A stretch of 64,000 bases of DNA from the human T2T-CHM13v2.0 reference genome, Homo sapiens (GCF_009914755.1 NC_060925.1); one strand, 5' to 3'. Positions 15,120-18,947 are shown, numbered from the stretch's first letter. Program-made: numbers and translations. The notes: generated by a model from the sequence alone, not told the origin.

Positions 15120-18100
15120 ATGACAGGATCTAATTCACACATAACAATATTAACTTTACATGTAAATGGACTAAATGCTCCAATGGAAAGACACAGACTG
15201 GCAAATTGGATAAAGAGTCAAGACCCATCAGTGTGCTGTATTCAGGAAACCCATCTCACGTGCAGAGACACACATAGGCTCAAAATAAAAGGATGGAGGA
15301 AGATCTACCAAGCAAATGGAAAACAAAAAAAGGCAGGGGTTGCAATCCTAGTCTCTGATAAAACAGACTTCAAACCAACAAAGATCAAAAGAGACAAAGA
15401 AGGCCATTACATAATGGTAAAGGGATCAATTCAACAAGAAGAGCTAACTATCCTAAATATATATGCACCCAATACAGGAGCACCCAGATTCATAAAGCAA
15501 GTCCTGAGTGACCTACAAAGAGACTTAGACTCCCACACATTAATAATGGGAGACTTTAACACCCCACTGTCAACATTAGACAGATCAATGAGACAGAAAG
15601 TCAACAAGGATACCCAGGAATTGAACTCAGCTCTGCACCAAGCGGACCTAATAGACATCTACAGAACTCTCCACCCCAAATCAACAGAATATACATTTTT
15701 TTCAGCACCACACCACACCTATTCCAAAATTGACCACATACTTGGAAGTAAAGCTCTCCTCAGCAAATGTAAAAGAACAGAGATTATAACAAACTATCTC
15801 TCATACCACAGTGCAATCAAACTAGAACTCAGGATTAAGAATCTCACTCAAAACCACTCAACTACATGGAAACTGAACAACCTGCTCCTGAATGACTACT
15901 GGGTACATAATGAAATGAAGGCAGAAATAAAGATGTTCTTTGAAACCAATGAGAACAAAGACACAACATACCAGAATCTCTGGGACACATTCAAAGCAGC
16001 GTGTAGAGGGAAATACATAGCACTAAATGCCCACAAGAGAAAGCAGGAAAGATCCAAAATTGACACCCTAACATCACAATTAAAAGAACTAGAAAAGCAA
16101 GAGCAAACACATTCAAAAGCTAGCAGAAGGCAAGAAATAACTAAAATCAGAGCAGAACTGAAGGAAACAGAGACACAAAAAACCCTTCAAAAAATTAATG
16201 AATCCAGGAGCTGGTTTTTTGAAAGGATCAACAAAATTGATAGACCGCTAGCAAGACTAATAAAGAAAAAAAGAGAGAAGAATCAAATAGACACAATAAA
16301 AAATGATAAAGGGGATATCGCCACCAATCCCACAGAAATACAAACTACCATCAGAGAATACTACAAATATCTCTACGCAAATAAACTAGAAAATCTAGAA
16401 GAAATGGATAAATTCCTCGACACATACACTCTCCCAAGACTAAACCAGGAAGAAGTTGAATCTCTGAATAGACCAATAACAGGCTCTGAAATTGTGGCAA
16501 TAATCAATAGCTTACCGACCAAAAAGAATCCAGGACCAGATGGATTCACAGCCAAATTCTACCAGAGGTATAAGGATGAGCTGCTACCATTCCTTCTGAA
16601 ATTATTCCAATCAATAGAAAAAGAGGGACTCCTCCCTAACTCATTTTATGAAGCCAGCATCATTCTGATACCAAAGCCGGGCAGAGACACCACCAAAAAA
16701 GAGAATTTTAGACCAATATCCTTGATGAACATTGATGCAAAAATCCTCAATAAAATACTGGCAAAACGAATCCAGCAGCACATCCAAAAGCTTATCCACC
16801 ATGATCAAATCGGCTTCATCCCTGGGATGCAAGGCTGGTTCAATATACGCAAATCAATAAATGTAATCCAGCATATAAACAGAACCAAAGACAAAAACCA
16901 CATGATTATCTCAATAGATGCAGAAAAAGCCTTTGACAAAATTCAACAACCCCTCATGCTAAAAACTCTCAATAAATTAGGCATTGATGGGACGTATTTC
17001 AAAATAATAAGAGCTATCTATGACAAACCCACAGCCAATATCATACTGAATGGGCAAAAACTGGAAGCATTCCCTTTGAAAACTGGCACAAGACAGGGAT
17101 GCCCTCTCTCACCACTCCTATTCAACATAGTGTTGGAAGTTTTGGCCAGGGCAATTAGGCAGGAGAAGGAAATAAAGGGTATTCAATTAGGAAAAGAGGA
17201 AGTCAAATTGTCCCTGTTTGCAGATGACATGATTGTATATCTAGAAAACCCCATTGTCTCAGCCGAAAATCTCCTTAAGCTGATAAGCAACTTCAGCAAA
17301 GTCTCAGGATACAAAATCAATGTGCAAAAATCACAAGCATTCCTATACACCAACAACAGACAAACAGAGAGCCAAATCATGAGTGAAATCCCATTCACAA
17401 TTGCTTCAAAGAGAATAAAATACCTAGGAATCCAACTTACAAGGGATGTGAAGGACGTCTTCAAGGAGAACTACAAACCGCTGCTCAAGGAAATAAAAGA
17501 GAATACAAACAAATGGAAGAACATTCCATGCTCATGGGTAGGAAAAGTCAATATCGTGAAAATGGCCATACTGTCCAAGGTAATTTACAGATTCAATGCC
17601 ATCCCTATCAAGCTACCAATGACTTTCTTCACAGAATTGGAAAAAACTACTTTAAAGTTCATATGGAACCAAAAAAGAGCCCGCATCGCCAAGGCAATCC
17701 TAAGCCAAAAGAACAAAGCTGGAGGCATCACACTACCTGACTTCAAACTATACTACAAGGCTACAGTAAGCAAAACAGCATGGTACTGGTACCAAAACAG
17801 AGATATAGATCAATGGAACAGAACAGAACCCTCAGAAATAACGCCGCATATCTACAACTATCTGATCTTTGACAAACCTGAAAAAAACAAGCAATGGGGA
17901 AAGGATTCCCTATTTAATAAATGGTGCTGGGAAAACTGGCTAGCCATATGTAGAAAGCTGAAACTGGATCCCTTCCTTACACCTTATACAAAAATCAATT
18001 CAAGATGGATTAAAGACTTACAAGTTAGACCTAAAACCATAAAAACCCTAGAAGAAAACCTAGGCATTACCATTCAGGACATAGGCTTGTGCAAGGACTT

Positions 18101-18947
18101 CATGTCTAAAATACCAAAAGCAACGGCAACAAAAGCCAAAATTGACAAATGGGATCTAATTAAACTAAAGTGCTTCTGCGCAGCAAAAGAAACTACCATC
18201 AGAGTGAACAGGCAACCTACAAAATGGGAGAAAATTTTCGCAACCTACTCATCTGACAAAGGGCTAATATCCAGAATCTACAATGAACTCAAACAAATTT
18301 ACAAGAAAAAAACAAACAACCCCATCAAAAAGTGGGCGAAGGACATGAACAGACACTTCTCAAAAGAAGACATTTATGCAGCCAAAAAACACATGAAAAA
18401 ATGCTCATCATCACTGGCCATCAGAGAAATGCAAATCAAAACCACAATGAGATACCATCTCACACCAGTTAGAATGGCAATCATTAAAAAGTCAGGAAAC
18501 AACAGGTGCTGGAGAGGATGTGGAGAAATAGGAACACTTTTACACTGTTGGTGGGACTGTAAACTAGTTCAACCATTGTGGAAGTCAGTGTGGCGATTCC
18601 TCGGGGATCTAGAACTAGAAATACCATTTGACCCAGCCATCCCATTACTGGGTATATACCCAAAGGACTATAAATCATGCTGCTATAAAGACACATGCAC
18701 ACGTATGTTTATTGCGGCATTATTCACAATAGCAAAGACTTGGAACCAACCCAAATGTCCAACAATGATAGACTGGATTAAGAAAATGTGGCACATATAC
18801 ACCATGGAATACTATGCAGCCATAAAAAATGATGAATTCATGTCCTTTGTAGGGACATGGATGAAATTGGAAATCATCATTCTCAGTAAACTATCGCAAG
18901 AACAAAAAACCAAACACCACATATTCTCACTCATAGGTGGGAATTGA
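15120..18947 (+). CDS. L1 ORF2p (endonuclease-reverse transcriptase), full 1275 aa; EN site mutated, RT intact
   Basis: Uninterrupted frame; [22 protein letters not shown] box QTTIREYY and CCHC (HCWWDC) present; N14H (CAT 15159-61), D229Y (TAC 15804-06). Confidence 0.95.

What the first reader, a model, noticed from the sequence alone, without database searches (positions are those of the whole stretch)
15120..18947. ORF2p is predicted endonuclease-dead but RT-competent (N14H + D229Y)
Seen: the frame is fully open, but N14 is His (CAT, 15159) and the SDH motif reads SYH (TAC, 15804). The two older L1s in this window keep N and SDH at these positions. E43, D145, D205, H230, the RT motifs ([12 protein letters not shown]), the PIP box and the CCHC are intact. 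Established: N14 and D229/H230 belong to the APE-like active site, and N14 mutation cripples retrotransposition. Inference: if expressed, it would be a reverse transcriptase without targeted nicking, able to make cDNA or RNA:DNA hybrids or EN-independent insertions. The open frame may simply reflect youth rather than selection.
Basis: partly seen in the sequence, partly recalled or inferred. Interest (0 to 1): 0.7.

Follow-up and report, generated by a model that had tools for sequence, protein, structure and literature searches.

The report
Decaying LINE-1 with likely dead endonuclease
This is a known, disabled human LINE-1 copy whose enzyme gene is still an open frame, most likely by chance; its DNA-cutting part is likely dead, and its copying part also carries changes at highly conserved positions, so a working 'copy-only' enzyme is unproven.

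Summary
In detail: ORF2 (15120-18947) is open, with N14H and D229Y, plus a third endonuclease (EN) hit, K23E, at a DNA-contact residue. EN-dead is likely. 'RT-competent' is not supported as stated. The catalytic aspartates are intact, but five reverse-transcriptase (RT)/thumb residues kept in 17-18 of 18 non-primate L1 lineages are changed, including the helix-clamp proline (P819S). Substitutions look neutral: N/S 31/19 against 257/118 in ten frame-broken relatives, p=0.42. Other open-frame copies with an EN active-site hit exist (3 of 32 held). The element is an L1PA2 in an SLC44A5 intron. It fits L1Base's class 'intact ORF2, disrupted ORF1' (107 in human). Its documented activity is antisense transcription into SLC44A5, not ORF2 expression. 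One untested twist: the LTR's target-site duplication recreates a start codon for a 218-aa truncated ORF1 ahead of ORF2, so an LTR-driven message is possible. Verdict: ordinary relic, low interest.

The parts
12147..12165 (+). 5' target-site duplication of the L1 (19 bp)
   Evidence: identical to 19206-19224; with the poly(A) tail it points to an ordinary EN-dependent insertion (inference)
12166..13068 (+). L1PA2 5' UTR with sense and antisense promoters (a few extra bases at the 5' junction)
   Evidence: spliced antisense ESTs from an L1PA2 (+) in SLC44A5 map to about 12557-12570 and 12283 (PMC4908685 Table S1; mapping)
12405..12620 (-). 71-aa antisense frame resembling ORF0
   Evidence: open frame; the name ORF0 is recalled, not tested
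13069..13377 (+). ORF1 5' part: 3-nt in-frame deletion, stop codon TGA at codon 103 (13375-13377)
13432..14399 (+). HERV-K(HML-2) solo LTR, 968 bp, 6-bp target-site duplication, AATAAA at 14224; solo-LTR allele of 1p31.1b (K4/K116/ERVK-1)
   Evidence: bounds and duplication; locus identity from PMC3228705 Table 1, PMC4422153, PMC13238051; identity rests on gene, strand, length and coordinate fit
14400..15056 (+). ORF1 3' part, 218 aa open, starting at an ATG recreated by the LTR duplication (end of coiled coil, RRM, CTD)
   Evidence: Pfam PF17489, PF02994, PF17490
15120..18947 (+). ORF2, 1275 aa, open
15159..15161 (+). N14H, EN active site
15186..15188 (+). K23E, charge reversal at an EN DNA-contact residue
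15804..15806 (+). D229Y, EN active site
16809..16811 (+). V564I (V in 18 of 18 lineages), two residues before the template/primer-contact loop 566-571
16953..16955 (+). F612L (F in 18 of 18 lineages), RT palm
17457..17459 (+). L780V (L in 18 of 18 lineages)
17544..17546 (+). R809K (R in 17 of 18 lineages; one has K)
17574..17576 (+). P819S, helix-clamp proline of the RT thumb (P in 17 of 18 lineages)
18948..19205 (+). 3' UTR and A-rich tail; diagnostic bases GAG (19059) and A (19144), i.e. not L1HS-Ta
   Evidence: Ta = ACA/G per PMC5210629
19206..19224 (+). 3' target-site duplication of the L1

Best explanation
This is a full-length L1PA2 with a broken ORF1 and an open ORF2 that is most likely decaying neutrally, its frame having probably escaped stops by chance, with a likely dead endonuclease and a reverse transcriptase that is predicted to be impaired or at best unproven. 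Shown: open frame, the substitutions, the ORF1 stop, the HERV-K LTR inside ORF1, and a neutral-looking N/S ratio. Inferred: the EN hits arose after (or during) an ordinary EN-dependent insertion, since the copy has a 19-bp duplication and a poly(A) tail; sense transcripts from the L1 promoter likely end at the LTR poly(A) signal before ORF2; so little or no ORF2p is made. The locus's documented output is antisense-promoter transcription into SLC44A5.
For: N/S of near-private changes 31/19 against 257/118 pooled over 10 frame-broken nearest relatives, Fisher p=0.42; RT+thumb 13/12 against 91/44, p=0.17; conserved-column hits in RT+thumb 5 of 13 against 23 of 91, p=0.33, so the RT is not spared. 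Omega 0.60-0.66 against a simulated neutral spectrum, one-sided p 0.06-0.10. P819 is the helix-clamp proline (PMC10830420). EN active-site hits in 3 of 32 other open copies held (N14S, E43V, H230L). Chance of two or more hits in 8 EN catalytic codons is 0.02-0.04 per open copy of this divergence, and of untouched RT catalytic codons 0.80-0.86. L1Base lists 107 human 'intact ORF2, disrupted ORF1' elements. Solo LTRs in NCCIT reads mostly served as poly(A) sites, and the 1p31.1b provirus had 3 reads against 6137 for the top locus (PMC13238051).
Against: The open frame is itself about a 1-in-50 event per copy. All 3 near-private EN changes fall on conserved columns (3 of 3 against 9 of 50, p=0.009; post hoc, and 3 of 5, p=0.12, if shared changes are counted). 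The RT core has more synonymous changes than simulated (10 against 3.6; N 8 against 9.5). V564I, L780V and R809K are chemically mild, and no assay of P819S was found. Comparators were the best-scoring search hits, not a random sample; 26 of 48 are L1HS-like.
Confidence: 0.75

Rival explanations
1. One reading: the protein is EN-dead but keeps useful RT activity if expressed, and could make cDNA or RNA:DNA hybrids or EN-independent insertions; expression is absent or incidental.
For: D600, F605, D702, D703 intact; none of the template/primer contact residues listed in PMC10830420 Ext. Data Fig. 1 legend is among the changed positions; 7 of 12 natural variants with many substitutions kept RT activity; tower deletions do not remove RT activity in vitro.
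Against: P819S, F612L, V564I, L780V, R809K at conserved sites; seven changes inside the 952-1020 'Star cluster' window where trialanine mutants lose retrotransposition (968, 990, 991, 998, 1002, 1018, and 1006, which is a shared lineage state); only 16% of trialanine mutants keep wild-type retrotransposition (retrotransposition, not RT, was measured).
Confidence: 0.17
2. The HERV-K LTR acts as a new promoter for a message that encodes N-truncated ORF1p (218 aa) followed by EN-dead ORF2p, in cells where these LTRs are active, more so on solo-LTR haplotypes.
For: LTR is in the same orientation, 720 bp upstream of ORF2; the duplication puts an ATG with A at -3 and G at +4 at 14400; the 218-aa frame and 63-nt spacer are intact; RefSeq enhancers cover 11810-14201 (hub annotation); solo LTRs can start transcripts (PMC13238051).
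Against: No transcript evidence found in the papers searched; an upstream ATG at 14266 opens a 49-aa frame overlapping 14400; many AATAAA sites lie in ORF2; RT competence doubtful; the arrangement is under 2 Myr old.
Confidence: 0.06
3. The host has selected for loss of EN and retention of RT at this locus (domestication).
For: 3 of 3 near-private EN changes hit invariant residues; synonymous excess in the RT core; open frame.
Against: No significant N/S deficit against dead relatives; conserved RT residues hit at the neutral rate; 6 of 50 near-private states match the older L1 in the window, so part of the synonymous excess is likely source-lineage history.
Confidence: 0.02

Closest known systems
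L1Base 'ORF2-L1' class (intact ORF2, disrupted ORF1; 107 human elements, PMC5210629)
   Same: Full-length L1 with open ORF2 and broken ORF1.
   Different: The class is of interest as possible Alu drivers, which needs EN; this copy has three EN hits. Whether this locus is one of the 107 was not checked.
Human L1 ORF2p, e.g. PDB 8UW3, 8SXT, 9HDO
   Same: Colinear 1275 aa; about 95-96% identical to the best genomic copies.
   Different: N14H, K23E, D229Y in EN; V564I, F612L, L780V, R809K, P819S in RT/thumb; about 40 lineage-rare changes in all.
Engineered EN-mutant L1s (D205A, H230A) that insert without EN in repair-deficient cells (recalled, Morrish et al.; not read here)
   Same: EN active site damaged, RT catalytic residues intact.
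   Different: Those have an otherwise wild-type ORF2p and a working ORF1p; this copy has neither.
HERV-K(HML-2) 1p31.1b (K4, K116, ERVK-1)
   Same: + strand, in SLC44A5 intron, antisense to the gene, human-specific, provirus/solo-LTR dimorphic.
   Different: This assembly holds the solo LTR; the passages read do not mention that it sits inside an L1 ORF1 or leaves an open ORF2 downstream.
Monocistronic ORF2 variants in brain (PMC12179785)
   Same: Natural ORF2 frames without ORF1, with variable RT activity.
   Different: All 12 tested raised gamma-H2AX; none was reported as EN-dead in the section read. Whether this locus is among them could not be seen (supplement not available).

Membership tests
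L1PA2 full-length LINE-1 | 5' UTR, ORF1, spacer, ORF2, 3' UTR, poly(A), target-site duplication | tested here: met
L1PA2 full-length LINE-1 | Subfamily-diagnostic bases (not ACA/G of L1HS-Ta) and published subfamily call | tested here: met
   GAG/A; L1PA2 in PMC4908685 Table S1 at the matching place. L1PA2 against late L1PA3 not resolved by my own test.
ORF2-L1 (L1Base) | Intact ORF2 frame | tested here: met
ORF2-L1 (L1Base) | Disrupted ORF1 | tested here: met
   stop at codon 103 and LTR insertion
Active (autonomous or Alu-driving) L1 | Intact EN active site | tested here: not met
   N14H, D229Y, K23E
EN-dead, RT-competent ORF2p | RT catalytic aspartates and gatekeeper intact | tested here: met
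EN-dead, RT-competent ORF2p | Other conserved RT/thumb residues intact | tested here: not met
   5 changes at columns at least 90% conserved, including P819S
EN-dead, RT-competent ORF2p | Measured RT activity, no nicking, expression | not testable with these tools
   needs assays and RNA data
Domesticated retroelement gene | Purifying selection (dN/dS well below neutral) | tested here: not met
   omega 0.60-0.66, p 0.06-0.10; p=0.42 against dead relatives; low power, about 50 changes
Domesticated retroelement gene | Frame kept in ape orthologues and human haplotypes | not testable with these tools
   no relatives held for this genome
HERV-K(HML-2) solo LTR, 1p31.1b | 968-bp LTR with TG...CA ends, 6-bp duplication, at the published place and strand | tested here: met
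   published start, strand and host gene; EST offsets land in the L1 5' UTR when this start is used

The most novel reading that the evidence does not exclude
A human-specific HERV-K LTR has recast a dead L1PA2 into a new transcription unit: LTR promoter, truncated ORF1p started by the duplication's ATG, then an ORF2p that copies RNA but cannot cut DNA. Its output would differ between solo-LTR and provirus haplotypes and give a polymorphic source of cDNA and RNA:DNA hybrids without genome nicking in embryonic, placental or tumour cells.
Probability: 0.05. Interest if true: 0.65.

Novelty: new member of a known kind. Interest (0 to 1): 0.2.

Why it matters
As the most likely neutral relic it matters little: it shows that motif checks overcall RT competence and that ORF2-intact catalogues include copies unable to cut DNA, which bears on counts of possible Alu drivers and RT sources. 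If the LTR-driven reading held, it would give a natural, genotype-dependent test of whether L1 reverse transcription alone, without nicking, drives innate immune signalling or repair-site insertions.

Tried and rejected
1) Positive selection for EN loss with RT retention: N/S and conserved-site tests against dead relatives not significant. 2) 'Youth' as the reason for the open frame: this copy is at the diverged end of its group and 0 of 10 nearest 5'-end relatives are open. 3) A first count of 45 private changes against mostly L1HS copies mixed in subfamily states; redone with 22 age-matched copies. 4) My early note of an ORF1 frameshift was wrong: it is a 3-nt in-frame deletion. 5) The LTR being 1p31.1a: rejected, since that locus has a 5-bp repeat, is on the minus strand and lies 2.24 Mb away. 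6) Literature on this ORF2: no paper held both 'SLC44A5' and 'L1PA2' in its main text; searches gave nothing in their listings on this ORF2's enzymes; PMC13103738 and PMC7617806 had no mention of the residues searched. 7) Per-residue trialanine values (Adney supplement) and the variant list of PMC12179785 could not be seen; both bear on RT competence and on novelty. 8) Structure prediction was not run: it would not resolve point-mutation effects. 9) Ape orthologues and haplotypes are not held.

Full report
Observation. ORF2 at 15120-18947 is one open frame of 1275 aa. Codon 14 is CAT at 15159 and codon 229 is TAC at 15804; E43, Y115, D145, N147, D205, H230, D600, F605, D702, D703 and the four C-terminal cysteines are unchanged. 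The four PDB ORF2p alignments shown have N14 and SDH. The two older L1s in the window keep N14 and SDH, though each is damaged elsewhere in EN.

What the element is. It is a full-length L1 with a 19-bp target-site duplication (12147-12165, 19206-19224) and an A-rich tail. The 3' UTR diagnostic bases are GAG and A, not the ACA/G of L1HS-Ta (PMC5210629, passages). ORF1 starts at 13069, has a 3-nt in-frame deletion and a TGA at codon 103, and is split by a 968-bp element at 13432-14399 with a 6-bp duplication and AATAAA at its position 793. This matches the HERV-K(HML-2) locus 1p31.1b (K4, K116, ERVK-1): + strand, human-specific, under 2 Myr (PMC3228705, table passage), inside SLC44A5 and dimorphic for provirus and solo LTR (PMC4422153, passages), with further structural alleles in pangenomes (bioRxiv 10.64898/2026.09.22.753638, passages). 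Taking the published hg19 start as window 13432, seven spliced antisense ESTs assigned to an L1PA2 in SLC44A5 (7 of 9 rows; the other 2 come from an L1PA3 elsewhere; PMC4908685 Table S1) have their 5' ends at 12557-12570 (6) and 12283 (1), inside this L1's 5' UTR (assumes no indel between assemblies over that stretch). So the element is a known L1PA2 with an active antisense promoter in placenta, tongue tumour and NT2 libraries.

Endonuclease. Miller et al. (PMC8565326, passages) place N14 and D229 among the water-coordinating active-site residues shared with APE1, and K23 on the positive surface that binds the second DNA strand. Among 18 non-primate L1 representatives (100 hits at or below 75% identity out of the 120 listed, clustered at 80%), N14 and K23 are kept in 9 of 9 and D229 in 12 of 12 that cover them. 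Adney et al. (bioRxiv 10.1101/721357, abstract, sections 14 and 17, passages) report under 20% retrotransposition for mutants covering 'N13' (as printed), E43, D145, D205, H230 and D702. I found no assay of N14H or D229Y, so EN-dead is a strong inference, not a measurement.

Reverse transcriptase. I scored 40 codons that differ from the majority of 22 age-matched copies; 3 more, shared by 8-10 of the 22, were dropped as lineage states. Five lie at RT or thumb columns at least 90% conserved: V564I, F612L, L780V (each 18 of 18), R809K and P819S (each 17 of 18). Baldwin et al. (PMC10830420, section 7 and passages) name P819 as the helix-clamp proline that lets the thumb approach the minor groove of the primer duplex. 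P819S occurs in 1 of 48 other copies held, a stop-bearing one. In favour of residual activity, none of the contact residues listed in that paper's Extended Data Fig. 1 legend is changed, three of the five changes are mild, and tower deletions leave RT activity in vitro. Nicodemus et al. (PMC12179785, abstract, section 37, passages) found significant RT activity in 7 of 12 natural variants, with some full-length ones inactive despite an intact RT frame. Domain borders follow Baldwin for tower and wrist; the palm/thumb border at 775/776 is recalled.

Selection or chance. The protein search of the genome scored 36 places, 34 without stops; 30 were cut out, one being this locus. I added 8 of the 31 other places, the top 10 of 39 from a 5'-end search and the top 1 of 39. 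These are best hits, not a random sample. Against 22 non-L1HS copies this ORF2 differs from the group majority at 70 sites (1.83%; others 0.84-1.86%), with omega 0.60-0.66 and one-sided p 0.06-0.10 against a simulated neutral spectrum. Against the ten 5'-nearest copies, all frame-broken, N/S is 31/19 versus 257/118 (p=0.42), RT+thumb 13/12 versus 91/44 (p=0.17), and conserved-site hits in RT+thumb 5 of 13 versus 23 of 91 (p=0.33). Two results lean the other way. All three near-private EN changes hit conserved columns (3 of 3 versus 9 of 50, p=0.009), but this is the pattern the finding was picked for, and it falls to p=0.12 when two shared changes are counted. The RT core has 10 synonymous changes where 3.6 were expected; 6 of 50 near-private states match the older L1 in the window, so some are probably source-lineage history. 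An open frame has probability near 0.02 per copy of this group; two EN catalytic hits 0.02-0.04 and clean RT catalytic codons about 0.83. The product, about 4 in 10,000, over a few thousand full-length L1PA2/L1PA3 copies (number recalled) gives about one such element per genome by chance. Single EN active-site hits in open frames are commoner: 3 of 32 held (L016 N14S, L020 E43V, L031 H230L), so this locus is not unique as a candidate EN-dead frame.

How it most likely works. The parent L1 inserted it by ordinary target-primed reverse transcription (inferred from the duplication and tail); it then gathered substitutions at random, lost ORF1 to a stop, and received the provirus, which has recombined to a solo LTR on this haplotype. 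Sense transcripts from the L1 promoter meet the LTR poly(A) signal before ORF2; in NCCIT direct RNA reads solo LTRs mostly served as poly(A) sites, and 1p31.1b gave 3 reads against 6137 for the top locus (PMC13238051, passages). ORF2p output is likely negligible (inferred; no expression data examined).

The remaining novel reading. The LTR lies in the same sense, and its duplication recreates an ATG at 14400 with A at -3 and G at +4, opening a 218-aa ORF1 fragment with RRM and CTD, followed by the normal 63-nt spacer. ORF2 translation by reinitiation after an upstream frame is established L1 biology (recalled). An LTR-started message could thus make truncated ORF1p and EN-dead ORF2p. Against it: an overlapping upstream ATG at 14266, no transcript evidence in the searches made (listings only for most hits), and the doubtful RT. 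I give it 0.05. Supplements of bioRxiv 10.1101/721357 and PMC12179785 could not be seen and may bear on residue effects and on whether this ORF2 has been detected as RNA.

Other papers touched: PMC12057132, PMC3670995 and PMC6916052 (passages), PMC13103738 and PMC7617806 (term searches with no hits).

Verdict. A member of the known class of L1s with intact ORF2 and disrupted ORF1 (107 in L1Base), at a known HERV-K locus. EN-dead likely; RT-competent unproven; no sign of selection. Interest 0.2.

Noticed in passing
window 13432-14399: Solo-LTR allele of HERV-K 1p31.1b nested in the L1PA2 ORF1; the passages read on this provirus do not mention the surrounding L1 or its open ORF2.
   Followed up: yes
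window 14400-15056: The LTR's target-site duplication recreates a start codon in good context for a 218-aa N-truncated ORF1p with RRM and CTD.
   Followed up: partly
window 12620-12405 (minus strand): Intact 71-aa antisense frame resembling ORF0 (name recalled), same sense as SLC44A5. Published EST 5' ends (about 12557-12570) lie downstream of its first ATG but upstream of a second Met at codon 28.
   Followed up: partly
window about 11700-12165 and 19206-23884: The L1PA2 appears to sit inside an older, decayed L1 (ORF1-like text before it, ORF2 from about 19745), which is also interrupted by an Alu at about 19419-19735: a three-level nest.
   Followed up: partly
window 16015-18090: Five pairs of unshared substitutions within 3 nt of each other among 43 (read), against 0-3 pairs in ten control copies; two members match the older L1 state, the rest are unexplained.
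   Followed up: partly
L016, L020, L031: Open ORF2 frames with single EN active-site changes (N14S, E43V, H230L) and unchanged RT catalytic and helix-clamp residues; L016 has also lost its normal stop codon (open frame 1311 aa).
   Followed up: partly
G000:C11:94154174-94217389: Eleven matches to the L1 5' end among the 40 rows, most spaced about 5.6 kb apart: looks like a tandem array containing an L1 5' region.
   Followed up: no
G000:C12:51523145-51530961: An L1 match followed directly by a second copy of its 3' 3 kb: possible internal duplication.
   Followed up: no
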